From the NCBI GenBank assembly GCA_003169895.1, contig PNAE01000007.1, positions 1,004,314-1,068,313 on the forward strand: 64,000 nt of DNA, read 5' to 3'. Shown here in pieces: positions 528-50,804 of the stretch. The notes under the pieces are model-generated. The model saw only the letters and a list, made by a program, of their open reading frames with translations, did no database searches and had not been told where the DNA came from. The first letter of the stretch is position 1. Each line of letters opens with the position of its first letter. This DNA comes from Gemmatimonadota bacterium. GTDB taxonomy: Bacteria; Gemmatimonadota; Gemmatimonadetes; Gemmatimonadales; GWC2-71-9. The position numbers were made by a program, and so were the translations under genes.

Positions 528-531
528 GAAT

Positions 532-626
532 AGAGCGACAAGAGAGACGAGAGATGAGAGAAATCGATTGGCCGCGCTATCGTTGCTGATCGACGTCTCT
601 CGTCTCTCGTCTCTCGTCTCTCTCCC
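532..626. repeat. Heptad-phased inverted repeat (GAGACGA-type); right arm is 4 perfect CGTCTCT units at 594-621
   Basis: The left arm agagcgacaagagagacgagagatgagaga (532-561) and the cgtctct x4 right arm are separated by a spacer of about 30 nt. The element lies between convergent genes and starts 5 nt after the TAA at 525-527. Confidence 0.75.
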
Positions 627-2004
627 ATTCCCGCCATCCCCCGCCGAGATCGATCACGTCGCTGAATCCAATCCACTCCAGCACCGACGCGCCGATCGCG
701 GAACGGGTGCCGCCCTCGCAATGAACGGCGAGCGGCGTGGTGTGATCCATTGCCGCGAGCGTGCTGGCCAGCGTGCCGAGCGGGTGGTGGGCTGCACCGT
801 TGAGATGGCCGGCGCGCCATTCGCTCAGGTCGCGAACGTCGACGATGAGTCTGCCGTCTCGCTGCAGTCGTGACGCCTCCGCCATCGGAACGCACCGCGT
901 GGCGCGAGCCTCGGGGACGCCCTGTGCCGCGGCAATCACCGCCGGACTGAATGCACCGGCGACGCGATCCAGACCGATCGACGCCAACGCCAGTTGTGCC
1001 TCGAGCGCCGCGCCCGGGTCCGCCGCGATCAGGTAGAGTGCCCGGTCAGCGGGCAGCAGCCAGCCCGCCCAGGTGGTGAAGGTCTTGATGAGCGGCAGGT
1101 TGAGCGTACCGGGTATATGGGCTTCGGCATACGCCTGAAGCGGGCGGATGTCGAGCACCAACCCGTCGCGCAGGGCGCGCGGCAGAGCCGACGCCGCAAG
1201 CTCAGCCGGTGCCGCGCGTACCCCGAGAATGGGTGGACCGTCGCGGTTGATGCGCTTCATGCGCGCGAAGTATGTGGGTGGTGGCGGCTGGCCCTCGAGC
1301 ACGGCGGCGACGAACGCGTCTTCATCGGCAATCTGGAAGGCCCAGTTGGTACGCCGTTCATAGCCAAGCGTGCTGGTGGGAAGCGAGCCCAGTGCCTTGC
1401 CGCAGGCGGAACCGGCACCGTGGCCGGGCCAGATCTGCAGGTAGTCCGGCAGCGGAGCCAGGCGCTGCAACGACCGGAAGAGCGCTCGGGCACTGGGTTC
1501 CTTGCTCTCCGCGATGCCCGCGGCTACTTCCAGCAGGTCGGGGCGGCCGACGTCCCCCACGAAGACAAAGTCGCCGGACAGCAGCGCGACCGGGTCATCG
1601 CTCCGTACCGTGTCCGTGACGATGAACGCCAGATGCTCGGGTGTATGTCCGGGCGTGTGCCTGACGGTGAATCGGACCCGGCCGAGCTCGATGAGATTGC
1701 CGTCCCGGAGTGGCGTCGTGACGTCGTCGGCTGGGTAGCGGTACTGCCAGTCGGCGCCGCCTTCCGCCGACAAGAGCACCGCCGCGCCGGTTGCCGCCGC
1801 GAGTTCGCGCGTGCCCGAGACGAAGTCCGCGTGGATATGGGTTTCGGTCACGCGGGTGATGCGGACGCCCTCCTGTCGTGCAGCATCGACATACGGCGCG
1901 ATGTTGCGACTCGGGTCGACAACGATCGCCTCGCCGGTCGCCTGGCAGGCAATGAGGTAGCCCGCTTGCGCCAGGCGTTCGTCGTAGCAACGGCGAACCA
2001 GCAT
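577..2004 (-). CDS. MBL-fold metallo-hydrolase fused to two rhodanese-like domains (persulfide-dioxygenase/rhodanese-type architecture)
   Basis: 475-aa ORF with an HxHxDH-type motif (THIHADFVSG) in the N-terminal half. Two rhodanese-like modules follow, the last carrying the active-site loop VHCEGGTRS. The final ~15 codons are read from the heptad repeat. Confidence 0.85.
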   Translation of the reverse strand: MLVRRCYDERLAQAGYLIACQATGEAIVVDPSRNIAPYVDAARQEGVRITRVTETHIHADFVSGTRELAAATGAAVLLSAEGGADWQYRYPADDVTTPLRDGNLIELGRVRFTVRHTPGHTPEHLAFIVTDTVRSDDPVALLSGDFVFVGDVGRPDLLEVAAGIAESKEPSARALFRSLQRLAPLPDYLQIWPGHGAGSACGKALGSLPTSTLGYERRTNWAFQIADEDAFVAAVLEGQPPPPTYFARMKRINRDGPPILGVRAAPAELAASALPRALRDGLVLDIRPLQAYAEAHIPGTLNLPLIKTFTTWAGWLLPADRALYLIAADPGAALEAQLALASIGLDRVAGAFSPAVIAAAQGVPEARATRCVPMAEASRLQRDGRLIVDVRDLSEWRAGHLNGAAHHPLGTLASTLAAMDHTTPLAVHCEGGTRSAIGASVLEWIGFSDVIDLGGGWREWERDERRETRDVDQQR

Positions 2005-2918: not shown

Positions 2919-3518
2919 ATGACGGCTCGACCAATCCTGACCATCATACTCCTCGCGGCTGCGGCCGGTTCCGCGGCGGGGCAGGATACCCTCCCCGGGT
3001 CGCGGATCACCAACGCCGGCGTCGTTCGCGCCACGGCCGCCACGGATTCGGTCTTCCTTGCCCGGACTCGAATGCGCGATACCGTCGACATTGGTGACTT
3101 CGCGAGCCTCATGCTCGCCAAGATCGGTGCGCCACCGTTCAGTGATTCGCTGGCCTTCAAGGTGACTGCGGATTCCCAGCGCGTCCGGGTTTCCGGCCGC
3201 CTGATGGACTTTCCCGCCGATTCGCGCGCCGAGCTCAGCCCGATCTTTTCGTTCCTCGATTCCACGTCAGTGTTCGTCGCGGAAATCTCGATGCCGCAGG
3301 CCGAGGACGGCATCATGGTCTTCCGGCTCGAACGGCTGACGGTGCGTGGCTTCCCGATCCCGGACCTGCTGGTACTCGCAGCGCTGGAACAATACCGCAA
3401 GCAGTACCCGAAGATGCTCGCCGCCGGCGGCAAGGAATTCCATGTCGAGATCCCGCGCGAGGCCCGGGCCGCCCTGGTCACGAACGGACTGGTACTGGTG
3501 ATGCCGCCGAAGCCTTAG
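2919..3518 (+). CDS. Hypothetical secreted protein
   Basis: Internal ATG at 2919 gives a signal-peptide-like N-terminus, MTARPILTIILLAAAAGSAAGQ. I recognise no family motif. Confidence 0.6.
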   Translation: MTARPILTIILLAAAAGSAAGQDTLPGSRITNAGVVRATAATDSVFLARTRMRDTVDIGDFASLMLAKIGAPPFSDSLAFKVTADSQRVRVSGRLMDFPADSRAELSPIFSFLDSTSVFVAEISMPQAEDGIMVFRLERLTVRGFPIPDLLVLAALEQYRKQYPKMLAAGGKEFHVEIPREARAALVTNGLVLVMPPKP

Positions 3519-3525
3519 CTTTCGT

Positions 3526-4767
3526 GTGATGCACGACCCCTGGGCCGCGCTCCGGCACCGCGACTACCGCCGCTTTCTCACCACCCATTTCGCCACCACG
3601 CTTGGCGTCCAGATCCAGGACGTCATCGTTGCCTGGCAGATGTACCTCGATACCCATGACCCGCTGTCACTCGGCCTGGTGGGACTCGCCGAGGCGCTTC
3701 CCAACATCCTGACGTCGCTGCTCGGCGGGCATGTAGCGGATCGGATGGACCGTCGCAAGCTGGCGCTGATTGCCACCTGGGTTCTGCTCGGCTGTGCGTT
3801 GGTATTGGCCGTGCTGGCGGGGTTCCACGGCCAAGCGAGTCACTGGCGCGTCGTCGGTGTGTACGGCGTGGTCGCGGTCAGCGGCGTAGCGCGCGCCTTC
3901 CTGCAGCCGGCCCGCACGGCACTCGCCGCGTCGATGGTACCCCGGGCAATGCAGCCCAACGCGATCACCTGGCGAAGCACCACCTGGCAGCTGGGTGCGG
4001 TGATCGGGCCGGCGCTCGGTGGTCTGCTCAACGCGGCGGTCGGGTTCCGCGGCAGCTACCTCGCCGATGCCGCCCTCATCGTCGTCGCGTTGTTCGCGCT
4101 CGCCGCGATCGAGTATCGCGGTGCACCGGTGGCGCCCGGTCCTTCCGAGCCGATCCTGCGCTCGTTGACCACCGGGATCCGCTACCTGCGGGGCCAGCAG
4201 GTCCTTCTCGGTGCCATGACGCTGGACCTGTTCTCGGTGCTGTTCGGCGGGGCGGTCGCGCTGCTGCCGATCTTCGTCGCCGACATCCTGCACACCGGCG
4301 TATGGGGCCTCGGGCTCCTGCGGGCGGCGCCCGCCGCTGGCGCACTCGCGATGTCGGTCTACCTGGCATGGCGGCCGCCGATGCAGCATGCCGGTCGGTC
4401 GCTGCTGATCGCGGTCGCCGCATTCGGCGCGTTCACGATCGGCTTCGGCCTCGCGCGCACCGTCTGGCTGTCGTTCGCGTGCCTGGCGGTGAGCGGCGCG
4501 GCCGATATGGTCAGCGTCGTCGTCCGTTCGACGCTGATGCAGCTGCTGGTGCCCAATCACCTGATGGGACGAGTCGCCAGCGTAAACTCGATCTTCATCG
4601 GCTCGAGCAACGAGATCGGTTCGTTCGAGTCCGGCCTCACGGCGCGATTGCTTGGCGCAGTGCCGGCGGTGCTGCTGGGCGGCGGGCTGACGCTCGCCGT
4701 GGTCGGCGGGACGGCGATCTGGGCACCGAAGCTGGGCCGAGTGCGAAGATTGGATGAGGTAAGATAG
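3526..4767 (+). CDS. MFS transporter
   Basis: 413 aa with about 12 hydrophobic segments and an MFS-like loop motif (GGHVADRMDRRK) between TM2 and TM3. Confidence 0.85.
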   Translation: MMHDPWAALRHRDYRRFLTTHFATTLGVQIQDVIVAWQMYLDTHDPLSLGLVGLAEALPNILTSLLGGHVADRMDRRKLALIATWVLLGCALVLAVLAGFHGQASHWRVVGVYGVVAVSGVARAFLQPARTALAASMVPRAMQPNAITWRSTTWQLGAVIGPALGGLLNAAVGFRGSYLADAALIVVALFALAAIEYRGAPVAPGPSEPILRSLTTGIRYLRGQQVLLGAMTLDLFSVLFGGAVALLPIFVADILHTGVWGLGLLRAAPAAGALAMSVYLAWRPPMQHAGRSLLIAVAAFGAFTIGFGLARTVWLSFACLAVSGAADMVSVVVRSTLMQLLVPNHLMGRVASVNSIFIGSSNEIGSFESGLTARLLGAVPAVLLGGGLTLAVVGGTAIWAPKLGRVRRLDEVR

Positions 4768-4976
4768 GGAAGAGAGACGAGAGACGAGAGACGTGAGACG
4801 TGAAACGAGAGACGAGAGACGAGAGACGAGAGACGAGAGAAGAGCCCCCGTCCGTGTCATCCCTCGCGTTGGCTCGGGATGCCAGCACGGCCATGCCGGT
4901 CACGTCTCACGTCTCACGTCTCTCGTCTCTCGTCAATAGTCTCTCGTCTCTCGTCAATAGTCTCTCGTCTCTCGTT
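4768..4976. repeat. Largest heptad-phased inverted repeat (GAGACGA/GAGACGT arrays, ~75-nt arms)
   Basis: The left arm (4768-4844) has about 10 GAGACGA/GAGACGT units. The right arm (4899-4976) has ACGTCTC/TCGTCTC units, including a 21-nt direct duplication tctctcgtctctcgtcaatag x2. The loop carries an ATCCCTCGC..GCTCGGGATG unit. The element starts directly after the TAG at 4765-4767. Confidence 0.85.
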
Positions 4977-5418
4977 GCACCCGCTTCCAATCCATCACGA
5001 CGGCGATCAGGTGCGTCGTGATCGTCACCGCGCTGATCGCGCACCACGGGCAGAACGTCTTCAGGATGATGAATTCGGCATACTTGAGGCGGAGCGTGAA
5101 GATGAACGCCGGAATGACCAGCGCCATCAGGGCCACCGTGATGCGCGGGTCGTCGATCCAGCGTGAGCGCAGGCCGACGAGCGCGGTGATCACGATCAGC
5201 GTATAGCCGACCGTGCCGATGAGCGCGACGTCGACACCGAGGAACCGACCCCATCGGGAGGTCATGGCATATTCGCAGCCGTGGTTCGCGGTGCAGGCGA
5301 GCGCGCCCATGTACCCCAGCTTCCAGAGGTGGAGGTACAGGGCGACCAGACCGGCGATGACAGCCGTCATCGCGATCCAGTGGCGGGGCGTGAAGCCGGT
5401 CGAGGTGGATTGGGTCAC
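4954..5418 (-). CDS. Vitamin K epoxide reductase (VKOR) family membrane protein
   Basis: 154 aa with four hydrophobic segments, a loop Cys pair (CTANHGC) and a CPWC redox motif. The C-terminal ..QRETRDY is read from the repeat arm. Confidence 0.8.
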   Translation of the reverse strand: MTQSTSTGFTPRHWIAMTAVIAGLVALYLHLWKLGYMGALACTANHGCEYAMTSRWGRFLGVDVALIGTVGYTLIVITALVGLRSRWIDDPRITVALMALVIPAFIFTLRLKYAEFIILKTFCPWCAISAVTITTHLIAVVMDWKRVQRETRDY

Positions 5419-5483
5419 AGCACCATTCTACCAGCGGCCGGCACGATCCGGAATCGCCGGCGGTGTAGGTTTCGCCCCCGATC

Positions 5484-7082
5484 ATGCCCGAATCCACTGA
5501 TGGTCTCGCCCGAGCGGCCGTCCCGCGCCGAACCTTTGCCATCATCTCGCATCCCGATGCCGGGAAGACCACCCTGACCGAAAAGCTGCTGCTCTACGGC
5601 GGCGCCATCCACCTCGCCGGGTCGGTCAAGGCGCGCCGCGCCGCTCGGCACGCGATCTCGGACTGGATGGCGCTTGAGCGCCAGCGGGGCATTTCCGTCA
5701 CGTCGAGCGTGCTCCAGTTCCAGTACTCCGGGTACCAGATCAACCTGCTCGATACCCCCGGACACGCCGACTTCTCGGAGGATACCTATCGCACGCTGAT
5801 CGCCGCCGACAGCGCCGTGATGCTCCTCGACAACCGTCGCGGGGTCGAGGAGCGGACCCGCCAGTTGTTCGACGTCTGTCGATTGCGTCGCATGCCGATC
5901 TTCACCTTCGTGAACAAGTGCGACCGGCCGGGCGGCAATCCGCTGGCGCTGGTGAGCGACGTCGAGGCCGACCTCGGTCTCGGCATCTACCCCGTGACCT
6001 GGCCGATCAACACCGGGTCCGGCTTTGTGGGGGTGGCGGATCGCCGCCGGCGCGAAGTGCTGCTGTTCGGCAGGACGGCCGACCATGGCGCCACGCTGGT
6101 CGAGACCCGCCGCATGGCAGTCGATGATGCCGCGCTGGGACTGGTGCTCGGCGAACAGGGCGTTGCCACGTTGCGCGACGAGCTCGACCTGCTCGATCAT
6201 GCGGGACACGCATGGGACGAGGCGGCCGTGCTCGCCGGGACGCTGTCGCCGATGTTCTTCGGTTCGGCGCTATCCAACTTTGGCGTCGAGCCGTTCCTGC
6301 ACGACTTCCTCGATCACGCGCCCGGCCCATTGCCGCGCCCAGCCGTGCCGTGCGAGGTCCTGCCGGATGGCGCCGAGTTCACCGGATTCGTGTTCAAGAT
6401 CCAGGCGAACATGGACCCCAAGCACCGGGACCGCATCGCGTTCGTCCGCGTCTGCTCGGGGCACTTCACCGCCGGCATGACCGTCACGCTGGCGCGCACC
6501 GGGAAGACGCTGCGCCTCGCGCAGCCGCAGCAATTCCTTGCCCGCGAGCGCATCGAAGTGGACGAGGCGTGGCCCGGCGACGTGATCGGCATTCACGACC
6601 GTGGCACGCTCCGCGTGTCGGATTCGCTGTCGATCCGGGGCGACGTCGTGTTCAGCGGGATCCCGCGCTTCGCGCCGCAATACTTCGCGCGGGTCATGGT
6701 GTCCGACCCGTTGCGCCGCAAGCACCTGGACACCGGCCTGCGGCAGCTGGCCGAAGAAGGAGCGGTGCAGGTGTTCTACCAGGAATCGATGGCCGGGCCG
6801 GTGCCGATCGTCGGCGCCGTCGGCCTGCTGCAGTTCGACGTGTTGCTCTTCCGGCTCGACGCCGAGTACGGTGTTCCCTGCAAGCTCGAGCCGTTGCCCT
6901 TCAAGCTCGCCCGCTGGGTGCGCGGCAGCGATACCGCGATCGATGCCGTCGTCGAAGGCCGCTCGCGCATGCGGCTGTACGATGCCCGGGGGAATTCGAT
7001 CCTGCTGTTCGAGGACGAATGGGCACTGCGGCACAGTCTCGAGAAGAGCCAGGGCCTCGAGTTTCTCGAAGTCGCGCCGTGA
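5484..7082 (+). CDS. prfC: Peptide chain release factor 3
   Basis: GTPase motifs ISHPDAGKTTLTEKLL, DTPGHADF and NKCD; length 532 aa; the sequence is RF3-like throughout. Confidence 0.95.
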   Translation: MPESTDGLARAAVPRRTFAIISHPDAGKTTLTEKLLLYGGAIHLAGSVKARRAARHAISDWMALERQRGISVTSSVLQFQYSGYQINLLDTPGHADFSEDTYRTLIAADSAVMLLDNRRGVEERTRQLFDVCRLRRMPIFTFVNKCDRPGGNPLALVSDVEADLGLGIYPVTWPINTGSGFVGVADRRRREVLLFGRTADHGATLVETRRMAVDDAALGLVLGEQGVATLRDELDLLDHAGHAWDEAAVLAGTLSPMFFGSALSNFGVEPFLHDFLDHAPGPLPRPAVPCEVLPDGAEFTGFVFKIQANMDPKHRDRIAFVRVCSGHFTAGMTVTLARTGKTLRLAQPQQFLARERIEVDEAWPGDVIGIHDRGTLRVSDSLSIRGDVVFSGIPRFAPQYFARVMVSDPLRRKHLDTGLRQLAEEGAVQVFYQESMAGPVPIVGAVGLLQFDVLLFRLDAEYGVPCKLEPLPFKLARWVRGSDTAIDAVVEGRSRMRLYDARGNSILLFEDEWALRHSLEKSQGLEFLEVAP

Positions 7083-7087
7083 CCAAG

Positions 7088-7245
7088 GAGAGACGAGAGA
7101 CGTGAGACGTGAGACGTGAGACGTGAACAACGTGGCGGTAGCGTCGTCCTGAGCGAAGGGACCCGTCGCTATGTTCGGGATGATAGCCCTGCAGGCCGTT
7201 CCTTCTCACGTCTCACGTCTCACGTTTCTCGTCTCTCGTCTCTCG
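7088..7245. repeat. Heptad-phased inverted repeat (GAGACGT/GTGAGAC arrays) with a GTCGTCCTGAGCGAAGGGAC unit in the loop
   Basis: Left arm 7088-7127 and right arm 7204-7245, between convergent prfC (stop 7080-7082) and selO (stop 7248-7250). TGA occurs at 7103, 7110, 7117 and 7124, which covers all three frames. Confidence 0.85.
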
Positions 7246-7247
7246 CC

Positions 7248-8759
7248 TTACGAACTGCAGCTGACGGCGATCTCTCGCGCCCATTCAGGCGGCCGCTCCG
7301 CGTACCGCTCCGCCGCCGGGTGTTCGTCGAACGGTGTCTGCAACAGGCGGCGAAGCTCCTCGATCGGCGCATAGTTACCCGCCTGGGCGCCGGCAATCGC
7401 TTCCTGCGCCATCCAGTTACGCAACACGAACTTGGGGTTGGTGCCGAGCATCCGGCCGTGTCGCGCGGTGACGTCGATGCTCTCCCGCAGCACGCGTTGC
7501 GTGTAGCGGGCCAGCCACGCAGTGAGGCGCTCCAGTGCGGGCACCTCGGCGCGCAACGCATCGTTGCGCTGGACATCGCGTGTGCTGTCACCGGCGGCAT
7601 GGTGTGACAGCGCGCGAAAAAAGCGGGTGTAGTCGGCGCGCGTGTCGTGCAGCAGCGCCAGCAGATCGGCCACCAGTACCACGTCACCGGCTTCGGTGCC
7701 CACGAGGCCGAGCTTCGCTCGCATCAGCTGGTCCATCTCGGCCTCGAACGTCCCACGATACTCTTCGAGTGCCGCGACAACCGCAGTTCCGCGCGACGCC
7801 GCCGGGACATCCTGGTCGAGCAGCGGCAGCAGTGCTTCGCCGAGTCGGGCGCAGTTCCACAGTCCGACGCGCGGCTGCTGATCGAACGCGTAGCGCCCGG
7901 CTGGATCGGAATGATTGGGGATGAAGCCGCGGTCGTAGGCGTCCATCCAGGCGTAGGGGCCGTAGTCGAGGGAGATGCCGAGAATTGACATGTTGTCGGT
8001 GTTCAGCACGCCGTGGGCGAAGCCGACCGCAGTCCAAGCCGCCATCAGCCGCGCGGTGCGAGCGACGACTTCGCGGTACCACGCCACGTATCGAGCCGGC
8101 GCGGGCAGCGTGAGCAGGTGGGCAAAGTGCATGTCGATCACGTAGTCGGCGAGTTGCCGCAACGCGGCGTCCTGACCGCGCGACGCGAACAGTTCAAAGG
8201 TGCCGAAGCGCACGTGGGTCGGCGCCACGCGCACGAGCACCGCGCCGGTCTCGACCTGCTCCCGGAATACCGGCGCGTCGCTTCCGATGATCGCCAGCGA
8301 ACGCGTGGTCGAAATGCCCAGGCCGTGCATCGCTTCGCCGGCGAGATACTCGCGTACCGTGGAGCGGAGCACCGCCCGCCCGTCGCCCATCCGCGAAAAG
8401 CGCGTCAAGCCGGCACCCTTGAGCTGCACGTCCCAGCGCTGGTGCCGCGAATTGACGATCTCGCCGAGCAGGATCGCCCGCCCGTCGCCCAACTCCGGCA
8501 CCCACACCCCGAACTGGTGCCCGGCGTAGATTGCGGCAATCGGCTGGGTGCCCGCCAGCGCGAGTTCGCCATTCAATGCCGCGACGAACTCGCGCCGCCC
8601 TCCCTCGCCCGGGTCGAGGTCCAACAGGGCGGCGACGTCGGGGTTGAAGGCCACCAGGGTGGGGTCGGGCAGCGGCGTTGGCCTGACCTGCTGGTAGAAC
8701 GCCTCCGGCAGGCGGGCGAACGAATTGTCCCAGCGCAGGTCTTCCAAGGGTCGGAGCAC
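7248..8759 (-). CDS. selO: Protein adenylyltransferase SelO (YdiU/UPF0061 family)
   Basis: 503 aa with characteristic segments ..FARLPEAFY.., ..GDGRAVLRS..REYL.. and ..HGVLNTDNMSILG..DYGPY. Confidence 0.9.
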   Translation of the reverse strand: MLRPLEDLRWDNSFARLPEAFYQQVRPTPLPDPTLVAFNPDVAALLDLDPGEGGRREFVAALNGELALAGTQPIAAIYAGHQFGVWVPELGDGRAILLGEIVNSRHQRWDVQLKGAGLTRFSRMGDGRAVLRSTVREYLAGEAMHGLGISTTRSLAIIGSDAPVFREQVETGAVLVRVAPTHVRFGTFELFASRGQDAALRQLADYVIDMHFAHLLTLPAPARYVAWYREVVARTARLMAAWTAVGFAHGVLNTDNMSILGISLDYGPYAWMDAYDRGFIPNHSDPAGRYAFDQQPRVGLWNCARLGEALLPLLDQDVPAASRGTAVVAALEEYRGTFEAEMDQLMRAKLGLVGTEAGDVVLVADLLALLHDTRADYTRFFRALSHHAAGDSTRDVQRNDALRAEVPALERLTAWLARYTQRVLRESIDVTARHGRMLGTNPKFVLRNWMAQEAIAGAQAGNYAPIEELRRLLQTPFDEHPAAERYAERPPEWAREIAVSCSS

Positions 8760-8855
8760 GGCGGAAACCTATCCAGCCGTGAAACCAACCTGGGCTCGGC
8801 AACGTTTATATCTGGAACGGGCTCCAACCCGTCTTTCCCCGGCAGGAGCAAGTCG

Positions 8856-9572
8856 ATGACGCCGAAATACTGGGCACGAATCGTCGCGGGCATGCTGGTT
8901 GTCTTCGCCATCGGCATGCTGGCCGCGCGCGGGATTCACAAAGGCAAGGATTTCGTGATGGACAACTTTCCCGCGTCACTCGGGCTGCTCAATGCGCAGT
9001 TCCGTGTCGACGGCGGCCGATTGGGGGATATCCAGCGGCTGCAGTTCATGCGGTCGCATCCGGGGCGGGTCGATTCCGCGGTCATGACGGTGAAGCTGGC
9101 AAGTTCCACGGACGCCAAGCGGCTCGATGGCTGCGCGTTGCGTGTCACGAACGGCCAGCCGTTCGGTAGTCATACCCGATTCCTCTGCGCCTCCAGCGCT
9201 GATTCCGCACGGCTCGGGCTGGTGCCCTTCGGGCACGTCGTGCTGCTGCCCGACGGCAAGCAGGTCACGTTGTTCGTCGCGCGCGACGTGCAAGACGACA
9301 TGCAGCAGCACGCGTATCGCGGCACGGGTGGTAACGACTCCGGCGACGTCGATATCCAGGCGGCTGATGGTCGTTTCCAGATCAGCGTCAATGGCAAGGT
9401 GATCGTGCAGGCGTCAGGGGACTCGAACGGCGGCAGTCTGGTCATCCGCGGCGCCAATGGCCGGCCGATCGTTGAAATCAACGGTGACAGTGCCGGTGGA
9501 TCCGTGAAGGTTACCGATGCGAACGGGAAGACCCGGGTGAACATCAACGGGAAGCAGGACAGCGGAAAGTAG
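8856..9572 (+). CDS. Hypothetical membrane-anchored protein
   Basis: ATG 8856 is preceded by AGGAG (8844-8848). One N-terminal TM segment (IVAGMLVVFAIGMLAA) and a Gly/Asn-rich repetitive C-terminus. The 5' part of ORF 8013-9572 is antisense to selO and was discarded. Confidence 0.6.
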   Translation: MTPKYWARIVAGMLVVFAIGMLAARGIHKGKDFVMDNFPASLGLLNAQFRVDGGRLGDIQRLQFMRSHPGRVDSAVMTVKLASSTDAKRLDGCALRVTNGQPFGSHTRFLCASSADSARLGLVPFGHVVLLPDGKQVTLFVARDVQDDMQQHAYRGTGGNDSGDVDIQAADGRFQISVNGKVIVQASGDSNGGSLVIRGANGRPIVEINGDSAGGSVKVTDANGKTRVNINGKQDSGK

Positions 9573-28005: not shown

Positions 28006-28220
28006 GCGAGCGAAACCAGTTGCCGGAGCACGTCGGGCGACGGCGCTCTTTCATCGTCGGCAGCGTCGTACTTCTCTCGTCGAAGGTCATCGTTTAGGTC
28101 CTCTGAGATAGCGGGGCTGTCACCCCGCGGTTCGGATCCTTCTCCCCAGAGAAGTTAGACAACGGGCTTTTTCCTGGAACCAACGGCGATTGAGCGACAC
28201 AGGTATCTGCACAGTATACG

Positions 28221-28325
28221 TCGACCCTGCAAACGTAAACCTCGACCCGGTCGACTCGAACCTCGACGCTGAAAACACGACCCTCGACCCTCTCGACTCA
28301 AACCTCGATCCTGCCGACTTTATTT
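28221..28325. repeat. Five phased 21-nt direct repeats built from TCGAnCC heptads
   Basis: Units tcgaccctgcaaacgtaaacc / tcgacccggtcgactcgaacc / tcgacgctgaaaacacgaccc / tcgaccctctcgactcaaacc / tcgatcctgccgactttattt. They lie directly 3' of the minus-strand stop at 28320-28322, with no inverted partner. Confidence 0.7.
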
Positions 28326-30251: not shown

Positions 30252-31921
30252 GGAACGGAGTCTCGGTGAGTTGTCGTGTGAGTCCCCGACGCGGCAGCGG
30301 CCCGCAACCGCTCCACCCGCTCCCGTTCGGATTGGAACTCGGTCTGGCCCAGGGCCAGCGCCAGAGCGGCATACCGGTCGGCCAGGTCCCACTGGTGCTC
30401 AGTGAGCAGGCACTCGATCAACTTGGCCCGGAGTGACGGAGCCTCCGGCTCCAGCCGCACGCCCGCGGCGAGAACCGGAACCGCGGCCGCACATTGTCCG
30501 TCAGTCCGAAGGAACTGGCCCAAACGTTCGTTGACCTCGTAATCATGCGGCCAGAGTTGCAGGGCATGCCGGAGGTTGGCGATTGCGCGAGGGTGGTCAC
30601 CCGCGCCCTCCCAATACTCGCCGGCGCCCTTCCACGCGCGATATGCCCGCGGCGCATCGTCGGTGAGATCGCTGTAGAAGCGGCGCTGGGTGCTCCAGGT
30701 CGGCACCCGGGTTGCGCTGCGAACACCAAGCACAACCCCCCAGATAACAAGTGCCGCAATCGGGATCCGTACACCCCAGACGTCTCTCGTCTCTCGTCTC
30801 TCGTCTCTCTTGTTGAGCATCGCGCCGAGAGCGATCGCCAGTCCGATGCTTGGCAGGAACAACACCCGCTCCGCCATGACAATCCCGGTTGGCACGAGCA
30901 GGTTGGCGACCGGTGCGAGTGTCACCGCCGCCCACCAAAGCCCGAAGGCGGCGGTTGGTGCGCGGCGTCGCGCAAGCGCAAATAGCGCGATGTATCCGAT
31001 CAGAAGAATCGCGCCGGCGATGTGCCGGGCAGCAACTGGCCCGCCGACCGGAATGCCGGGCGGCCCGTAGTCGGCCTGCAGATGCAGCGGCCAGAACAGC
31101 AGACGCACGTACTCGGGAATGACGCCCAGGAACGTGACGGCGCGCGCTCCGGGCCCAAGTCCGCGGAGCGCCATGGCCGGCGTATCGCCAGCGAAACCGG
31201 TCAGCACGCCGGCACGCACGACGAGCAGCAGCAGCGTAAGCGCCGTCACCGGGACCAGCAGCCGGGCGCGCCTCGCCACTCGGGCGATGCGGATGCCCTT
31301 CTCTCGTCCCTCGTCTCTCGTCTCTCCTGGCGCCAGCAGCCATTCGGCCCCGCCAAGGAGCAGGGGCGCCATGAACCCCTGTTCCTTGGCAGCTATACCA
31401 ATGGCTACTATAGCGAGAAGCGCCAGAACAACACCGGCCGTCACACCGGTACGCCGCGCGTCCAGGTAGATCGATGTGGCAGTCAGCAGTGCCAGTGCAG
31501 TCCACAGCTCCGCCTGACCCACGCCGTTGGCCACCACTTCCACGTGAACGGGGTGCACCAGGAACAGCAGCGTCGCGGCGAGGGCGGGCAGTTCCCGCAC
31601 CGCAAGCCGCCGGAGCAGTGCGTAGAGCGCCAGCCCGCAGCCGAGGTAACCGAGCAGCAGTGTGAGATGAAAAATCCACGGTGCGCCCTGACCCAGGCGC
31701 CATTGCAGCGCAAATCCGGCCACGGTCAGCGGGCGCCACAGCGTGCCGAGCCAGTATGGCGATGCCGCGATGGTATGCCACTGGGTGGGATCGGTGACCC
31801 GCGAATTCTGCACGATGGCCGGCAGGTCGTCATACACGAAGCCGTTGCGAAGGCTCAGCCCCATCGCCAGCGCTACCGCGAGCGCGCAGGCGGCGAACAC
31901 CTCGCGTCGTCGCAACCTCAT
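30248..31921 (-). CDS. TMTC-like membrane protein: GT-C-type TM domain (DUF1736-like) plus C-terminal TPR repeats
   Basis: First-loop motif GFVYDDLPAIVQNSRV, about 9-11 TM segments, and a TPR-like C-terminus (..AYRAWKGAGEYWEGAGDHPRAIANLRHALQLWP..). It contains two in-frame heptad-repeat patches. Confidence 0.8.
   Translation of the reverse strand: MRLRRREVFAACALAVALAMGLSLRNGFVYDDLPAIVQNSRVTDPTQWHTIAASPYWLGTLWRPLTVAGFALQWRLGQGAPWIFHLTLLLGYLGCGLALYALLRRLAVRELPALAATLLFLVHPVHVEVVANGVGQAELWTALALLTATSIYLDARRTGVTAGVVLALLAIVAIGIAAKEQGFMAPLLLGGAEWLLAPGETRDEGREKGIRIARVARRARLLVPVTALTLLLLVVRAGVLTGFAGDTPAMALRGLGPGARAVTFLGVIPEYVRLLFWPLHLQADYGPPGIPVGGPVAARHIAGAILLIGYIALFALARRRAPTAAFGLWWAAVTLAPVANLLVPTGIVMAERVLFLPSIGLAIALGAMLNKRDERRETRDVWGVRIPIAALVIWGVVLGVRSATRVPTWSTQRRFYSDLTDDAPRAYRAWKGAGEYWEGAGDHPRAIANLRHALQLWPHDYEVNERLGQFLRTDGQCAAAVPVLAAGVRLEPEAPSLRAKLIECLLTEHQWDLADRYAALALALGQTEFQSERERVERLRAAAASGTHTTTHRDSVP
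30781..30808. repeat. Four perfect CGTCTCT heptads inside the CDS (encode ..RDERRETRD..)
   Basis: cgtctct x4 at 30781-30808, with no inverted partner nearby. Confidence 0.75.
31298..31326. repeat. Degenerate CGTCTCT heptad patch inside the CDS (encodes ..GETRDEGRE..)
   Basis: cttctct cgtccct cgtctct cgtctct at 31298-31325. Confidence 0.6.
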
Positions 31922-34886: not shown

Positions 34887-35273
34887 ATGCGCAACTCACG
34901 TAGCGGCTTCACCCTGATCGAGCTTCTGATTGTGGTCGTGATCATCGGGATCCTGGCAGCCATCGCCATCCCGAAGTTCGCCGCGACCAAGGACAAGGCC
35001 AAGCTGGCGTCAGTCAAGGCGGACGTGCGCAACTCCGAGACCGCCGAAGAGGCCTACTTCTCGGACTTCGCCACCTACGCGGTCTACGCCCAGCTGCAGA
35101 CTGCGACCAACTTGCTCATCTCCCCGGGCAACACCATCAGCATTGCGACGAACGCCAGCGGTTACACGGTTACCGCGACGAACAGTTCGATCTCGACCGG
35201 CATCACCAGCTGTCAGGTTCAGGTGGGCGCCGGGGCGACGACTGGGATTGACGGGCAGATCAAGTGCCCGTGA
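34887..35273 (+). CDS. Type IV major pilin paralogue
   Basis: MRNSRSG|FTLIELLIVVVIIGILAAIAIPKFAATKDKAKLASVK.. is almost identical to the first pilin over ~55 aa, with a divergent C-terminal half and a conserved Cys pair. Confidence 0.9.
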   Translation: MRNSRSGFTLIELLIVVVIIGILAAIAIPKFAATKDKAKLASVKADVRNSETAEEAYFSDFATYAVYAQLQTATNLLISPGNTISIATNASGYTVTATNSSISTGITSCQVQVGAGATTGIDGQIKCP

Positions 35274-35327
35274 CAAGTGAGACGTAAGCGGTGAAAGGTG
35301 AAAGGGGTGTCGTCCCTCTCACTTCCG
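35272..35327. repeat. Heptad-phased array (GTGAGAC/GTAAGCG/GTGAAAG units) directly after the pilin stop
   Basis: tgacaa gtgagac gtaagcg gtgaaag gtgaaag gggtgtcgtccctctcacttcc. The tip motif GGGgTGTCGTCCC is shared with the hslV-hslU element. Self-complementarity is weak. Confidence 0.6.
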
Positions 35328-41702: not shown

Positions 41703-41705
41703 ATG

Positions 41706-41784
41706 ACGTGAGAGGTAAGACGTAAGAGGGGATCTCCACGCACGACGGAGATCCCCTCTTACGTCTCACCTCTCACCTCTTACC
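41706..41784. repeat. Heptad-phased hairpin (GTGAGAG/GTAAGAC/GTAAGAG units) with a perfect 19-bp core stem
   Basis: gacgtaagaggggatctcc (41719-41737) and ggagatcccctcttacgtc (41747-41765) flank a 9-nt loop. The stem extends about 11 bp further with 2 mismatches. The element fills the pilQ-aroC spacer. Confidence 0.85.
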
Positions 41785-41791
41785 TTCCGTC

Positions 41792-48695: not shown

Positions 48696-48710
48696 TGAGC
48701 ACAGATCTTG

Positions 48711-48775
48711 TCATCCCGAGCGAAGCGAGGGATCGGCCCGCCGCATAGCGATCCCTCGCTTCGCTCGGGATGACA
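48711..48775. repeat. Perfect 25-bp inverted repeat GTCATCCCGAGCGAAGCGAGGGATC / GATCCCTCGCTTCGCTCGGGATGAC
   Basis: Arms at 48711-48735 and 48751-48775 with a 15-nt loop, between xerC and hslV. Related half-units occur at 43619-43636, 4858-4883 and 7143-7162. Confidence 0.85.
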
Positions 48776-48792: not shown

Positions 48793-49338
48793 ATGACCGA
48801 ATTCCATGGAACAACCATCCTGGCCGTCCGCAAGAACCGCCGCGTCGCCCTCGGCGGCGACGGCCAGGTCTCCATCGACGCGACGATCGTCAAGGCGCAC
48901 GCCAACAAGGTGCGCACCCTCAAGGGCGGCCGTATTCTGGCCGGATTTGCGGGGTCGGTCGCCGACGCGCTCACACTATTCGAGCGCTTCGAGGAGAAGT
49001 TCGACCGCTATCCCGGTAACCTCACCCGCGCCGCGACGGAGCTGGCCAAGGACTGGCGCAGTGACCGCTACTTGCGCCGGCTGGAAGCGTTGCTGGTGGT
49101 CGCCGATCTCGACCACGTGTTTCTGCTGAGCGGAACCGGAGAGCTGATCGAGCCGGACGACGGCATCATGGCCGTGGGATCCGGTGGCACCTACGCTCTG
49201 GCCGCCGCACGCGCCTTGTATCCGGACGAGCAGATGGAGGCGCGCGCCATCGTGGAGCGGAGCTTGCAGATCGCGAGCGAGATCTGCGTGTTTACCAACG
49301 CCAACGTGACGATACTGGAATTGGGTAAAGAGGCGTGA
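48793..49338 (+). CDS. hslV: ATP-dependent protease subunit HslV
   Basis: [13 protein letters not shown].. (catalytic Thr after processing) and ..GGDGQVS...(IV)K..A.K(VR)..; 181 aa. Confidence 0.95.
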
Positions 49339-49410
49339 AGAGTGCAAGGTGAAAGGTGAAAGGGATGTGATGTCGTCCCGTTTTACCTCTTACCTTTCAC
49401 CTTTCACGCC
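49332..49410. repeat. Heptad-phased imperfect hairpin (GTGAAAG units) filling the hslV-hslU spacer
   Basis: The left arm ggcgtgaagagtgcaaggtgaaaggtgaaaggga includes the hslV stop. The reverse complement of the right arm is ggcgtgaaaggtgaaaggtaagaggtaaaacggg. About 26 of 34 positions are complementary by hand count. Confidence 0.8.
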
Positions 49411-49424
49411 TTAGCTTCTCCCGC

Positions 49425-50804
49425 ATGACCGCGACGCCTCCCGTCACACCCGAACCGTTGCCCTGGCTCGAAGAACTCCCTCCTCGCCAGATCGTCGCCG
49501 AGCTGGATCGCTATATCGTCGGGCAGGGCGCGGCGAAGAAGGCGATCGCCATCGCGATCCGCAACCGGTGGCGGCGGTCCCAGGCGCCAGAAGGGATCCG
49601 TGACGAGATCACACCCAGCAACATCATCCTGATCGGCCCCACGGGCGTCGGGAAGACCGAGATCGCGCGCCGACTCGCGCGGCTTGCGGGCGCGCCGTTC
49701 GTCAAGGTCGAGGCGTCCAAGTTCACCGAGGTGGGCTACGTGGGCCGCGACGTGGAATCGATGGTGCGTGACCTGGTGGATGCCGCGATTTCACTGGTTC
49801 GCGCCGAGCGTGAGGACGAGGTATGGCCGCACGCCGAGGAGCGCGCGACCGAACGCCTGCTGGACCTGCTGCTGCCAGCCGCGGCGGCCGAAGACGTGGA
49901 TCCCGCGCTTAAGGAGCGCCGCAAGGCATCGCGCGCGAAGCTCAAGCAGCAGCTGATTGATGGCAAGCTCGACGACCGCGAAGTCGACATCGAAGTCACG
50001 CCGATGAACTATCCCAACCCCGACAGCATGCAGCCGCCGGGTGGGATGGAAGGCCCCGAGTCGGCGTTCACCGATTGGCTGATGGACATGCTGCCCAAGA
50101 AGAAGAAGCGGCGCAGCGCCAAGGTGCCCGAAGCCCGGCGCATTCTGGAAGACGAGGAGTTGCGCAAGCTGGTCGACATGGATGAAACCGTAAATGAGGC
50201 GCTCGACCGGGTCGAGAACCACGGCATCATTTTCATCGATGAAATCGACAAGATCGCCGGCGAGCGGAATACCACCGGGCCCGACGTGTCACGCGAAGGC
50301 GTGCAGCGCGACCTCCTGCCGGTGGTGGAAGGGTCCACGGTGCAGACGCGGTATGGCTATGTGCGCACCGACCACATCCTTTTCGTGGCGGCGGGCGCGT
50401 TCCACGTGTCGAAGCCCTCGGATCTGATCCCGGAGCTGCAAGGCCGGTTTCCCATCAGGGTCGAACTCGAGCCGCTGACGGAAAAGGATTTCGTGCGGAT
50501 TCTCACCGAGCCGGAGAACGCGCTCACCAAGCAGTATTCAGCGCTGGTTGCGGCGGAGAAGTGCAAACTCGACTTCACCGCGGATGCGATCGATGAAATT
50601 GCCCGCACGGCGTGGATCGCCAACGACCGGATGGAGAACATCGGTGCGCGCCGGCTGCACACGGTGATGTCTGCCCTGGTCGAGGACTTGCTCTTCGATC
50701 TGCCCGACGGCTCGGAGCGGACGATCACCATCACTGCCGAGGACGTGAAGCAGCGGTTGGCCAGCGTGGTGCAGAACGACGACTTGCGGAAGTACATCCT
50801 GTAA
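49425..50804 (+). CDS. hslU: ATP-dependent protease ATPase subunit HslU
   Basis: ..IV.ELD.YI.GQ..AK..., Walker A GPTGVGKTEIARRLA, and Walker B IIFIDEIDKI. Confidence 0.95.
   Translation: MTATPPVTPEPLPWLEELPPRQIVAELDRYIVGQGAAKKAIAIAIRNRWRRSQAPEGIRDEITPSNIILIGPTGVGKTEIARRLARLAGAPFVKVEASKFTEVGYVGRDVESMVRDLVDAAISLVRAEREDEVWPHAEERATERLLDLLLPAAAAEDVDPALKERRKASRAKLKQQLIDGKLDDREVDIEVTPMNYPNPDSMQPPGGMEGPESAFTDWLMDMLPKKKKRRSAKVPEARRILEDEELRKLVDMDETVNEALDRVENHGIIFIDEIDKIAGERNTTGPDVSREGVQRDLLPVVEGSTVQTRYGYVRTDHILFVAAGAFHVSKPSDLIPELQGRFPIRVELEPLTEKDFVRILTEPENALTKQYSALVAAEKCKLDFTADAIDEIARTAWIANDRMENIGARRLHTVMSALVEDLLFDLPDGSERTITITAEDVKQRLASVVQNDDLRKYIL

What the first reader, a model, noticed from the sequence alone, without database searches (positions are those of the whole stretch)
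7080..7250. Heptad arrays start within a few nt of stop codons and place stops in all three frames
Every intergenic copy begins 10 nt or less from a stop codon:
- TAA 525-527, array from 532
- TAG 4765-4767, array from 4768
- TGA 7080-7082, array from 7088
- TGA 35271-35273, array from 35272
- TGA 41700-41702, array from 41706
- TGA 49336-49338, which lies inside the arm
- minus-strand TAA 28320-28322, array from 28319 downward
- selO stop 7248-7250, arm ends at 7245
Units of the GTGAGAC, GTAAGAG and GTGAAAG types contain TGA or TAA. Because 7 is not a multiple of 3, three consecutive units give a stop in each frame. For example, TGA occurs at 7103, 7110, 7117 and 7124, and the mirror-image TCA occurs at 7206, 7213 and 7220 for the minus strand. 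This looks like a frame-independent stop cassette coupled to a hairpin, or an element that targets gene 3' ends.
Basis: partly seen in the sequence, partly recalled or inferred. Interest (0 to 1): 0.6.

Follow-up and report, generated by a model that had tools for sequence, protein, structure and literature searches.

The report
Stop-codon-anchored hairpins with heptad-repeat arms
In this soil Gemmatimonadales chromosome, long hairpins whose two arms are 7-base microsatellites sit directly behind gene ends; they are a new member of a published but unexplained class of bacterial heptamer repeats and most likely mark transcript ends, and they are not a device for supplying stop codons.

Summary
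The coordinates and the closeness to stop codons are correct. Five strong hairpins (528-630, 4768-4975, 7088-7245, 41703-41791, 49331-49411) and two one-armed arrays begin 0-10 nt after a gene's stop.

The "stops in all three frames" part holds for only 5 of 10 arms. The commonest unit, GAGAGAC, has no stop on either strand, and two genes are actually translated into arrays. A stop cassette is therefore rejected.

What is there:
- Heptad-microsatellite hairpins with a fixed polarity: purine-rich arm 5', pyrimidine-rich arm 3'. In 185,579 genomes this order gave 15 loci and the reverse order gave 0.
- No U-tract follows them, and they vary strongly between strains.
- At the orthologous hslV-hslU junction, some relatives have overlapping genes and no hairpin. 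Others have hairpins built from different units.
- All nine relatives with a structure there, and none of 17 without, carry a leaderless-type -10 box in front of hslU.

Best reading (inferred, not shown): slippage-driven hairpins that define transcript 3' ends and transcription-unit boundaries in both directions.

The closest precedent is the GGGAATC heptamer repeats of Xanthomonas (Rehm 2015). These show the same stop proximity and inverted pairs, and their function is unknown.

The parts
528..630 (.). Heptad-arm hairpin between convergent genes (M1-peptidase-like gene, stop TAA 525-527, and the minus-strand MBL-rhodanese gene). Purine arm about 532-561, loop 562-593, pyrimidine arm 594-624 (CGTCTCT x4).
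   Evidence: (dG -62.6, z -10.6). The minus-strand ORF 577-2004 is translated through the right arm.
4768..4975 (.). Largest heptad-arm hairpin, between the MFS transporter gene (stop TAG 4765-4767) and the minus-strand VKOR gene. Purine arm 4768-4845 (11 units, mostly GAGAGAC). Loop 4846-4899 carries a degenerate GTCATCCC...GGGATG palindrome. Pyrimidine arm 4900-4975 has a 21-nt higher-order repeat.
   Evidence: (dG -128.5, z -14.3). The VKOR stop (4954-4956) lies inside the arm. In a ~99% identical strain the 70-nt loop is replaced by 28 other letters.
7083..7247 (.). The hairpin of the finding. It fills the whole prfC-selO convergent spacer. Purine arm 7088-7126 (GAGAGAC x2, GTGAGAC x3), loop 7127-7203 with a degenerate GTCGTCCTGAGCGAAG...GGGATGA core, pyrimidine arm 7204-7245.
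   Evidence: (dG -108.4, z -10.6). In strain X7, 7081-7205 is replaced by 60 letters and the right arm is 14 nt (2 units) shorter.
35274..35312 (+). Degenerate, essentially one-armed purine-rich heptad array (GTGAGAC, GTAAGCG, GTGAAAG x2) directly after the stop of a pilin-like gene.
   Evidence: (no significant fold, z +1.3).
41703..41791 (+). Heptad-arm hairpin filling the pilQ-aroC spacer (units GTGAGAG/GTAAGAC/GTAAGAG). The last unit of the 3' arm supplies TACCTT (41781-41786), a -10-like box 5 nt before the aroC ATG (41792).
   Evidence: (dG -59.0, z -9.8).
49331..49411 (+). Heptad-arm hairpin (unit GGTGAAA) between hslV and hslU. Its base includes the last hslV codons and the stop TGA 49336-49338.
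   Evidence: dG -50.0, z -6.8. Identical in four contigs of the same strain. Compared with orthologous sites.
49412..49427 (+). TAGCTT -10-like hexamer, 7 nt, then the hslU ATG (49425): a leaderless-type promoter directly after the hairpin.
   Evidence: TAnnnT at -11 to -13 in 9 of 9 orthologous spacers with a hairpin or palindrome, and in 0 of 17 without.
28207..28319 (-). One-armed period-21/7 array, G/purine-rich on the sense (minus) strand, directly after the stop (28320-28322) of a PMT_2-type glycosyltransferase gene. It is not a hairpin.
   Evidence: z -0.3/-0.4.
30781..30809 (-). Intragenic (GAGAGAC)x4 array, purine-rich on the sense strand, translated as KRDERRETRDV inside a membrane glycosyltransferase/TPR protein.
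31300..31326 (-). Second intragenic heptad array in the same gene, translated as GETRDEGRE.

Best explanation
These are hairpin-forming heptad microsatellites: two inverted arrays of a 7-nt unit. The arrays grow, shrink and change unit by replication slippage, while the two arms stay complementary.

They sit in the unconstrained DNA directly behind stop codons. The purine-rich arm is always 5' and the pyrimidine-rich arm always 3'. This polarity reads the same on both strands.

Proposed working (inferred): whichever strand is transcribed, the RNA folds into a very stable 23-80 bp stem with no U-tract. While the 3' arm is being made, the RNA:DNA hybrid in the polymerase is pyrimidine-RNA on purine-DNA, the weakest class of hybrid. 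The purine arm can therefore win the RNA back. The result is either transcript release or a stable 3' end that exonucleases cannot pass.

The element thus marks a transcription-unit boundary in both directions. That fits its place between convergent genes, and between tandem genes where the downstream gene carries its own leaderless-type promoter.

Stop codons inside some units are a by-product of unit sequence.

Shown: structure, location, polarity, turnover and the promoter correlation. Inferred: termination or 3'-end protection, and the hybrid-stability reason for the polarity.
For: Structure:
- Five hairpins have z -6.8 to -14.3.
- Period 7 dominates: 36 arrays against 8 of period 6, 4 of period 8 and none of other periods 4-12, in 212 kb not selected for heptads.

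Location:
- All 7 window elements start within 10 nt past a stop, and none lies in the 7 divergent spacers.
- Elsewhere about 36 of 44 abut a 3' end.
- A Fibrobacter example lies between convergent genes, 9 nt after a TAA.

Polarity:
- The exact-pattern scan of 185,579 genomes found 15 loci in the purine-to-pyrimidine order and 0 in the reverse order.
- All unseeded Gemmatimonadales hairpins have purine content of at least 0.65 in the 5' arm, apart from one neutral case at 0.56.
- Single arrays next to stops are purine-rich on the sense strand in 12 cases against 2.

Pairing kept through turnover: at the orthologous hslV-hslU site, six species carry six different units (GGTGAAA, GAGGAGG, GGATGAT, GAGAGAA-type, GAGAAGC, GAGAGAA/AAG), each with a complementary arm.

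Boundary role:
- Among hslV-hslU spacers, 9 of 9 with a hairpin or palindrome have TAnnnT 11-13 nt before the hslU ATG. Among those without, 0 of 17 do, and most of those have overlapping ATGA/GTGA genes.
- aroC and selO show the same -10-like box.

No competing signal: canonical hairpin-plus-U-tract terminators are at or below chance in 20 kb (6 found, 8.7 expected, all of them inside genes).

Weak RNA hint: a metatranscriptome contig covering hslV ends at 49355, inside the 5' arm. Coverage of prfC fades at its hairpin.

From established knowledge, not tested here: pyrimidine-RNA/purine-DNA hybrids are the least stable class (Roberts and Crothers 1992).
Against: - There is no direct evidence of termination. 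The RNA data are low-depth assembled contigs, and these also break at repeats.
- The elements are dispensable. Close relatives lack them at the same site, and presence is scattered across the HslVU tree.
- They differ between ~99% identical strains, which looks more like neutral turnover than a tuned signal.
- G-U-type mismatches are not enriched on the sense strand (about 8 against 17 A-C type). There is therefore no RNA-specific signature, although the numbers are small.
- At least one verified hairpin lies between divergent genes (L191:381-559), and two more are apparent.
- Sorangium carries the reverse polarity, with long spacers.
- From memory, not tested: mycobacterial RNA polymerase was reported to need a U-tract for intrinsic termination. 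That argues against release by U-less hairpins and favours the 3'-end-protection version.
Confidence: 0.5

Rival explanations
1. The elements are neutral or selfish palindromic microsatellites. The arrays exist only because polymerase slippage favours 7-nt units and because hairpin-templated repair keeps the arms alike. Position and polarity reflect where such DNA is tolerated (behind stops, purine-rich on the sense strand), not a function. Any effect on transcripts is incidental.
For: - Gain and loss are rapid among close relatives, and strains differ.
- They occur inside genes and overrun gene ends.
- An example exists in a divergent spacer.
- There is no sense-strand G-U excess.
- Mrazek 2007 (as summarised in PMC4679880) concluded that long 5-11 nt repeats may reflect a tendency to expand rather than a role.
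- Rehm 2015 found no regulatory role.
Against: - A 15:0 polarity and a 12:2 sense-strand bias need a directional cause.
- The perfect association with a separate promoter for hslU shows that the element at least behaves as an operon break.
- Stems of -50 to -130 kcal/mol cannot be invisible to RNA polymerase, ribosomes and RNases.
Confidence: 0.3
2. The arrays exist to place stop codons in all three frames on both strands behind genes, catching read-through or frameshifted ribosomes.
For: Arms at 7088, 35272, 41706, 4900-4975(-) and 7204-7245(-) do carry stops in all three frames.
Against: - GAGAGAC units have no stops.
- 5 of 10 window arms and most arms elsewhere lack three-frame coverage.
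- T-free arms occupy the orthologous site.
- Two genes are extended into arrays.
- Three-frame coverage follows arithmetically from any TGA-containing heptad.
Confidence: 0.03
3. The arrays are binding sites for a sequence-tolerant, repeat-reading protein on DNA or RNA, such as a nucleoid protein or a global regulator. A role of this kind was proposed for the heptanucleotide elements of Geobacter and the TAACTGA repeats of Beggiatoaceae.
For: - Heptanucleotide arrays drawn as strand-switching pairs were annotated as putative global regulator sites in Geobacter metallireducens (PMC2700814).
- Three units equal 21 bp, or two helical turns, and 21-nt super-repeats occur.
Against: Unit sequence differs from locus to locus and from species to species at the same site. 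No single recognition sequence exists. No candidate protein was identified.
Confidence: 0.07
4. The element is a mobile element (MITE- or REP-like) that inserts at stop codons. The heptad arrays would be its terminal inverted repeats, and the GTCATCCYGAGCG palindrome its core.
For: - Presence and absence at one orthologous site are clean, with exact boundaries (L136 against L133).
- A multicopy palindrome (GTCATCCYGAGCG...) sits in the loops of many hairpins.
- The arrays are high-copy in metagenome k-mers.
Against: - There is no target-site duplication.
- Loops are unrelated between copies, and several hairpins have no core.
- Arm units differ per locus.
- No transposase lies nearby in the window.
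Confidence: 0.05
5. The function lies in non-B DNA structure: cruciform, H-DNA, or G-quadruplex as proposed for the Xanthomonas repeats. The structure would act on replication, recombination or genome stability.
For: - Long perfect inverted repeats and purine/pyrimidine asymmetry favour cruciforms and triplexes.
- Rehm 2015 showed G4 formation for GGGAATC oligonucleotides.
Against: - GAGAGAC, GTGAGAC and GGATGAT units have no G-runs, so G4 cannot be the common factor.
- The C in every heptad breaks the homopurine mirror symmetry that H-DNA needs.
- A DNA-only role does not explain the sense-strand rule for single arrays.
Confidence: 0.05

Closest known systems
GGGAATC / GGGGA(C/T)T heptameric repeats of Xanthomonas and Nostoc (Rehm et al. 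2015, PLoS One, PMC4692102)
   Same: - 7-nt tandem units with variable copy number.
- 70-75 of about 185 sites per genome are convergent inverted pairs able to form stem-loops.
- The G-rich copy lies on the sense strand 0-50 bp after the stop codon or overlaps it, and the C-rich copy lies before the next ORF.
- They are under-represented between divergent ORFs.
- Length and sequence vary between close relatives at the same gene pairs.
- Function is unresolved.
   Different: - The units here (GAGAGAC, GTGAGAC, GTAAGAG, GGTGAAA) have no G-tracts, so the G-quadruplex reading cannot apply.
- The phylum is different (Gemmatimonadota, with relatives in Fibrobacterota, Acidobacteriota and others).
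- There is no preference for four units.
- The hairpin form is the rule here rather than a minority.
Long simple sequence repeats of 5-11 nt (Mrazek, Guo and Shah 2007, as summarised in PMC4679880)
   Same: Heptanucleotide units are the commonest class. They occur mostly in free-living bacteria with large genomes. Polymerase slippage is the suggested origin. Period 7 dominates here as well.
   Different: That survey did not describe, as far as the summary goes, the paired inverted arrangement, the stop-codon anchoring or the polarity.
REP/BIME extragenic palindromes of enterobacteria
   Same: They are multicopy extragenic hairpins at gene 3' ends and between convergent genes. They are known (from memory: Liang, Rudd and Deutscher 2015) to affect translation when within about 15 nt of a stop, and to protect mRNA 3' ends.
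   Different: REPs share one ~35-nt consensus and are tied to RAYT transposases. Here the arms are microsatellites whose unit differs per locus. The separate GTCATCCYGAGCG palindrome in this genome (48706-48778) is the more REP-like element.
Intrinsic (Rho-independent) terminators, including proposed U-less 'I-shaped' terminators of GC-rich bacteria
   Same: A stable GC-containing hairpin sits just downstream of a stop codon, and its symmetric form works for convergent genes.
   Different: There is no U-tract. Stems are 23-80 bp rather than 5-14, and loops reach 77 nt. Termination activity is untested.
TAACTGA direct repeats of marine Beggiatoaceae (MacGregor 2015, PMC4679880) and the heptanucleotide elements of Geobacter metallireducens (PMC2700814)
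   Same: They are intergenic heptamer arrays with a sporadic phylogenetic spread. TAACTGA also carries stops. The Geobacter class-3 sites are drawn as strand-switching pairs of five heptads.
   Different: TAACTGA arrays are direct repeats placed just upstream of start codons, with one fixed unit. Here the arrays are inverted pairs just downstream of stops, with variable units.

Membership tests
Intergenic heptameric SSRs with inverted pairs (Rehm 2015 class; Mrazek LSSR5-11) | Head-to-tail tandem copies (at least 2) of a 7-nt unit | tested here: met
   TRF and my own period-7 detector: 3-11 units per arm.
Intergenic heptameric SSRs with inverted pairs (Rehm 2015 class; Mrazek LSSR5-11) | Period 7 over-represented relative to neighbouring periods | tested here: met
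   36 arrays of period 7 against 8 (period 6), 4 (period 8) and 0 (other periods 4-12) in 212 kb of unseeded Gemmatimonadales DNA.
Intergenic heptameric SSRs with inverted pairs (Rehm 2015 class; Mrazek LSSR5-11) | Two arrays in convergent (inverted) orientation close together | tested here: met
   Five pairs in the window and dozens in other genomes.
Intergenic heptameric SSRs with inverted pairs (Rehm 2015 class; Mrazek LSSR5-11) | Purine/G-rich copy on the sense strand within 50 bp after, or overlapping, the stop codon | tested here: met
   7 of 7 in the window; about 36 of 44 hairpins elsewhere; single arrays 12:2.
Intergenic heptameric SSRs with inverted pairs (Rehm 2015 class; Mrazek LSSR5-11) | Under-represented between divergent ORFs | tested here: inconclusive
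   0 of 7 divergent spacers in the window hold one, although they make up 31% of intergenic bases. By that share alone p is about 0.07. Elsewhere 3 of 44 are apparent divergent cases, one of them verified.
Intergenic heptameric SSRs with inverted pairs (Rehm 2015 class; Mrazek LSSR5-11) | Copy number and sequence vary between close relatives at the same locus | tested here: met
   Strain X7 and orthologous hslV-hslU spacers.
G-quadruplex-forming GGGNATC repeat family (narrow sense) | Four or more G3 tracts per array | tested here: not met
   The units GAGAGAC/GTGAGAC/GTAAGAG contain no GGG.
Canonical intrinsic terminator | Short GC-rich stem-loop followed by a U-tract | tested here: not met
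   No T-run follows any hairpin. The consensus scan finds none at these sites.
Canonical intrinsic terminator | RNA 3' ends form at the element in vivo or in vitro | not testable with these tools
   Only low-depth assembled metatranscriptome contigs were available.
REP/BIME | One conserved imperfect-palindrome consensus shared by all copies | tested here: not met
   Arms differ in unit and length between loci, and loops are unrelated.
REP/BIME | Associated RAYT (Y1 transposase) in the genome | not tested
   The whole genome is not available. None of the window genes scanned is a RAYT.
MITE | Terminal inverted repeats with target-site duplication and a conserved interior | tested here: not met
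   There is no duplication at the L133/L136 presence/absence boundary, and interiors are unrelated.
   Only 5 of 10 arms in the window do so, 37 of 57 arms elsewhere have no stop at all, and ORFs read into arrays.
Any Rfam family | Match at gathering score | tested here: not met
   0 hits in 64 kb on both strands.

The most novel reading that the evidence does not exclude
Purine-to-pyrimidine heptad hairpins are a distinct class of bidirectional transcript-end signal that needs no U-tract and spans several phyla. The role of the U-tract is taken by the weak pyrimidine-RNA/purine-DNA hybrid of the 3' arm. Microsatellite slippage lets cells create, tune and delete operon boundaries quickly, each time paired with a leaderless promoter for the downstream gene.
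Probability: 0.25. Interest if true: 0.75.

Novelty: new member of a known kind. Interest (0 to 1): 0.45.

Why it matters
Heptamer repeats are the commonest long microsatellites in free-living bacteria. Their function was still called unknown in the one detailed study (Rehm 2015).

This window shows that the same architecture exists in Gemmatimonadota with units that cannot form G-quadruplexes. That architecture is an inverted pair, a purine arm on the stop codon and fast turnover. Relatives occur in Fibrobacterota, Acidobacteriota, Planctomycetota, Chloroflexota and others. The G-quadruplex explanation is therefore not the common factor. The strict arm polarity and the link to a separate downstream promoter point to transcription instead.

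If the terminator reading is right, it would explain how GC-rich phyla without canonical terminators end their transcripts. It would also show how operons can be split and re-fused on short evolutionary timescales.

Two practical consequences follow. These arrays break short-read assemblies, and they lengthen or alter the C-terminal ends of annotated proteins.

Tried and rejected
- **Rfam at gathering scores:** nothing in the window. There are also no tRNAs.
- **Literature search for the exact array strings and for the GTCATCC... palindrome:** no relevant paper.
- **G-U against A-C mismatch asymmetry, as a test for RNA-level selection:** no sense-strand excess, with small numbers. Inconclusive.
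- **RNA evidence:** only one soil metatranscriptome holds this organism, as low-depth contigs. Three peat metatranscriptomes from the source study gave nothing. The Fibrobacter locus is found only at 28% or less of words, in assembled contigs. No coverage profile could be obtained.
- **Strain comparison through exact-protein look-up of HslV:** it returned four contigs of the same strain with identical spacers, so it was uninformative.
- **Idea that the array is seeded by, or in register with, the stop codon:** in register at L130 and L133 but not at 7080, 41700 or L129. Dropped.
- **Shine-Dalgarno-like reading of the purine arm:** rejected, because GAGAGAC has no GG.
- **G-quadruplex and H-DNA:** rejected as general explanations, because there are no G-runs and a C interrupts each heptad.
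- **MITE:** rejected, because there is no target duplication and interiors are unrelated.
- **Crude ORF-length gene calling for the ~50% GC Fibrobacter loci:** unreliable, because the stop-free arrays fuse ORFs. Those loci were left out of the context statistics.

Full report
**What is in the sequence**

The window is a GC-rich (about 66%) stretch of ordinary chromosome. It comes from an uncultured Gemmatimonadales bacterium of peat and soil. The best HslV identity to any species genome is 94%, and the DNA is found in peat, soil and permafrost metagenomes.

Five of them are pairs of inverted arrays that fold into very stable hairpins on either strand:

| Hairpin | Location | dG (kcal/mol) | z |
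|---|---|---|---|
| 528-630 | between the M1-peptidase-like and MBL-rhodanese genes | -62.6 | -10.6 |
| 4768-4975 | between the MFS and VKOR genes | -128.5 | -14.3 |
| 7083-7247 | between prfC and selO | -108.4 | -10.6 |
| 41703-41791 | between pilQ and aroC | -59.0 | -9.8 |
| 49331-49411 | between hslV and hslU | -50.0 | -6.8 |

The copies at 35272 and 28207-28319 do not fold better than shuffled sequence. They are one-armed arrays. Two further arrays lie inside a gene (30781-30809 and 31300-31326).

The units differ by locus: GAGAGAC, GTGAGAC, GTGAAAC, GTAAGAC/GTAAGAG and GGTGAAA. Rfam finds nothing.

**Checking the observation**

All the stop codons and all the TGA and TCA positions quoted are correct. 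They are the stops of real genes (gene calls, Pfam support).

Only 5.9% of intergenic bases lie within 10 nt past a stop, yet all seven elements start there. In this compact genome, however, the element fills its spacer. Other convergent pairs are 2, 3 and 27 nt apart with nothing between them, so the window alone cannot separate 'anchored at the stop' from 'is the spacer'.

Other genomes can. Among about 44 such hairpins in GC-rich loci, about 36 have a gene 3' end within about 20 nt of the stem base. In tandem spacers the stop side is the closer one in 16 of 21. This includes cases with 50-200 nt of spare room on the start side. Proximity to stops is therefore real.

The three-frame-stop part is only partly true. 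It holds for 5 of 10 arms in the window, and it follows automatically once a unit contains TGA.

**Why it is not a stop cassette**

GAGAGAC and its complement have no stop in any frame. Orthologous hairpins in relatives include arms with no T at all (L130 and L145).

Two minus-strand genes read into arrays rather than being stopped by them:
- The MBL-rhodanese protein ends ...WERDERRETRDVDQQR*, with its stop in the loop.
- The VKOR protein ends ...QRETRDY* inside the arm.
- A third gene carries KRDERRETRDV and GETRDEGRE as internal insertions.

**A fixed polarity**

In every hairpin of the window the purine-rich arm comes first and the pyrimidine-rich arm second. This order is unchanged by reverse complementation, so it is a property of the element and not of the strand chosen.

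I tested it with two equally strict patterns over one genome for each of 185,579 species:
- GAGAGAC x2, 8-38 nt, GTCTCTC x2 gave 15 loci, in Gemmatimonadota, Chloroflexota, Planctomycetota, Brocadiaceae and Flavobacteriales.
- The reverse order gave none.

Among loci brought in by a plain (GAGAGAC)x3 scan, about 26 hairpins have purine first. These include many from Fibrobacter, and some from Acidobacteriota and Nitrospirota. Five have the reverse order, four of them in Sorangium, where spacers are long and there are extra inner hexamer repeats.

Hairpins found without any seed, in loci fetched through HslV, all have 5' arms with purine content of at least 0.65, apart from one neutral case at 0.56. 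Single arrays next to a stop are purine-rich on the sense strand in 12 cases against 2. The underlying rule is therefore 'purine-rich RNA directly after the stop'. A purine-to-pyrimidine hairpin satisfies that rule for both genes of a convergent pair.

**Turnover**

I fetched the hslV-hslU junction in about 27 Gemmatimonadales genomes.
- Most of the loci without a structure, among them L125, L131, L136, L144 and L148, have overlapping ATGA or GTGA genes. The others have spacers of about 2-34 nt with no structure.
- Others have a hairpin that starts 0-5 nt after the hslV stop, built from a different unit in each: GAGGAGG, GGATGAT, GAGAGAA-type, GAGAAGC and GGTGAAA. In every case the arms are complementary and the purine arm comes first.

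On an HslV+HslU tree, presence and absence are interleaved even within tight clades.

Between strains about 99% identical in the flanking genes, three changes are seen:
- The loop of the 4768 element is replaced (70 nt by 28 unrelated letters).
- Positions 7081-7205 are replaced by 60 letters.
- The right arm of the 7088 element is 14 nt, exactly two units, shorter.

Short-read assemblies break at the arrays. Period 7 is by far the commonest repeat period in 212 kb of unseeded DNA from this order.

**A link to transcription units**

All nine orthologous hslV-hslU spacers that carry a hairpin or palindrome have a TAnnnT hexamer 11-13 nt before the hslU ATG (TAGATT, TAGCTT, TATCTT or TAGGTT). 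None of the 17 without a structure has one. The spacing is that of a -10 box for a leaderless mRNA.

The same box precedes aroC (TACCTT, supplied by the last unit of the arm), selO and other genes of the window. Wherever the hairpin is present, hslU appears to have its own promoter. Wherever it is absent, hslU is translationally coupled to hslV.

Canonical hairpin-plus-U-tract terminators are not above chance in this DNA, and none of the heptad hairpins is followed by a T-run.

**Most likely working**

I read these as slippage-driven hairpins that define transcript ends in both directions.

The polarity has a physical rationale from established knowledge. Hybrids of pyrimidine-rich RNA on purine-rich DNA are the least stable class. 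While the 3' arm is in the polymerase, the hybrid is therefore weak, and the competing RNA-RNA stem with the purine arm is very strong. This is the role a U-tract plays in ordinary terminators.

Alternatively, or in addition, the stem is simply the point at which 3' exonucleases stop after termination further downstream.

All of this is inference. The only RNA data are low-depth metatranscriptome contigs. One of them ends at 49355, inside the 5' arm of the hslV hairpin. Coverage of prfC fades at its hairpin. Assembly breaks would look the same.

Several points count against a tuned function:
- the elements are dispensable and hypervariable
- one verified copy lies between divergent genes (L191)
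- there is no excess of G-U-type mismatches on the sense strand

The main rival is that they are neutral, self-expanding palindromic microsatellites, filtered by what the cell tolerates.

**Comparison with what is known**

Heptanucleotide units are the commonest long microsatellites in bacteria (Mrazek 2007, as summarised in PMC4679880).

The closest match is the GGGAATC repeat family of Xanthomonas (Rehm et al. 2015, PMC4692102):
- about 185 sites per genome, 70-75 of them convergent inverted pairs
- the G-rich copy on the sense strand within 50 bp of the stop or overlapping it
- rarity between divergent ORFs
- variation between close relatives
- function 'still to be elucidated'

The authors favoured G-quadruplexes. 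The units here have no G-runs, so that cannot be the shared principle.

The elements resemble REP sequences in position and intrinsic terminators in shape, but they fail the defining features of both. They have no common consensus and no U-tract.

I therefore file them as a new member of the known, functionally unexplained class of stop-proximal inverted heptamer repeats. What this analysis adds is the polarity rule, the turnover at one orthologous site and the promoter correlation.

**Caveats**

- Gene calls outside the window rest on my own codon model, and most are unverified.
- The (GAGAGAC)x3 loci are biased towards that unit, though not towards either polarity.
- The counts were tallied by eye from the table.

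Noticed in passing
window 48706-48778 (xerC-hslV spacer); degenerate copies at 4855-4882 and 7143-7188; also L113, L127, L129, L133, L134, L183, L191, and the Fibrobacter and Chryseobacterium loci L015, L039, L044, L063: A perfect palindrome with ~28-31-nt arms, TTGTCATCCCGAGCGAAGCGAGGGATCG...CGATCCCTCGCTTCGCTCGGGATGACAA (dG -66.6). This is a different, REP-like multicopy repeat found across phyla. It often sits in the loop of heptad hairpins, so many elements are composite: heptad arms around this core. Its k-mers are very abundant in a soil metatranscriptome (depth 174). No paper holding the sequence was found.
   Followed up: partly
window 49412-49427, 41781-41794, 8757-8772 (minus), 3511-3528, 5418-5432 (minus): TAnnnT hexamers lie 5-7 nt before ATG or GTG start codons, with almost no Shine-Dalgarno motifs. 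This suggests that the organism makes wide use of leaderless mRNAs.
   Followed up: partly
window 30248-31900 (minus): A glycosyltransferase/TPR membrane protein carries two heptad arrays in frame (KRDERRETRDV and GETRDEGRE). The same RDERRETRD peptide forms the C-terminal tail of the MBL-rhodanese protein (577-2004). Intragenic arrays are purine-rich on the sense strand in 8 cases against 2 across loci.
   Followed up: partly
L036:296-559, L111:4331-4645, L024, L078 (Sorangium): Sorangium has large palindromes of the opposite polarity, with the pyrimidine arm first. They have inner GTGAAC/GTTCAC hexamer arrays and ~125-nt spacers, making them an exception to the polarity rule.
   Followed up: partly
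window 43732-50804: The gene order topA - trmFO(gid) - xerC - hslV - hslU is the same as the Bacillus topA-gid-codV-clpQ-clpY cluster. Here it is interrupted by a REP-like palindrome before hslV and a heptad hairpin after it.
   Followed up: no
L142:3060-3150: At the hslV-hslU site one genome has a one-armed array of period 8 (CCGTCTTT), pyrimidine-rich on the sense strand just before hslU. It has no partner arm and no TAnnnT box.
   Followed up: no
L191:381-559: A heptad hairpin (GGTGAAT / GGTGAGG units around the REP-like core) lies between two divergently transcribed genes. It is followed by TACGAT, 5 nt, then ATG. This shows that the elements are not strictly confined to 3' ends.
   Followed up: yes
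window 4400-8900 in runs X1, X7, X11: Metagenome contigs end or jump at the arrays, and k-mer depth there rises 10- to 30-fold. These repeats are a systematic cause of assembly breaks, and possibly of chimeric joins, in soil metagenome-assembled genomes.
   Followed up: no
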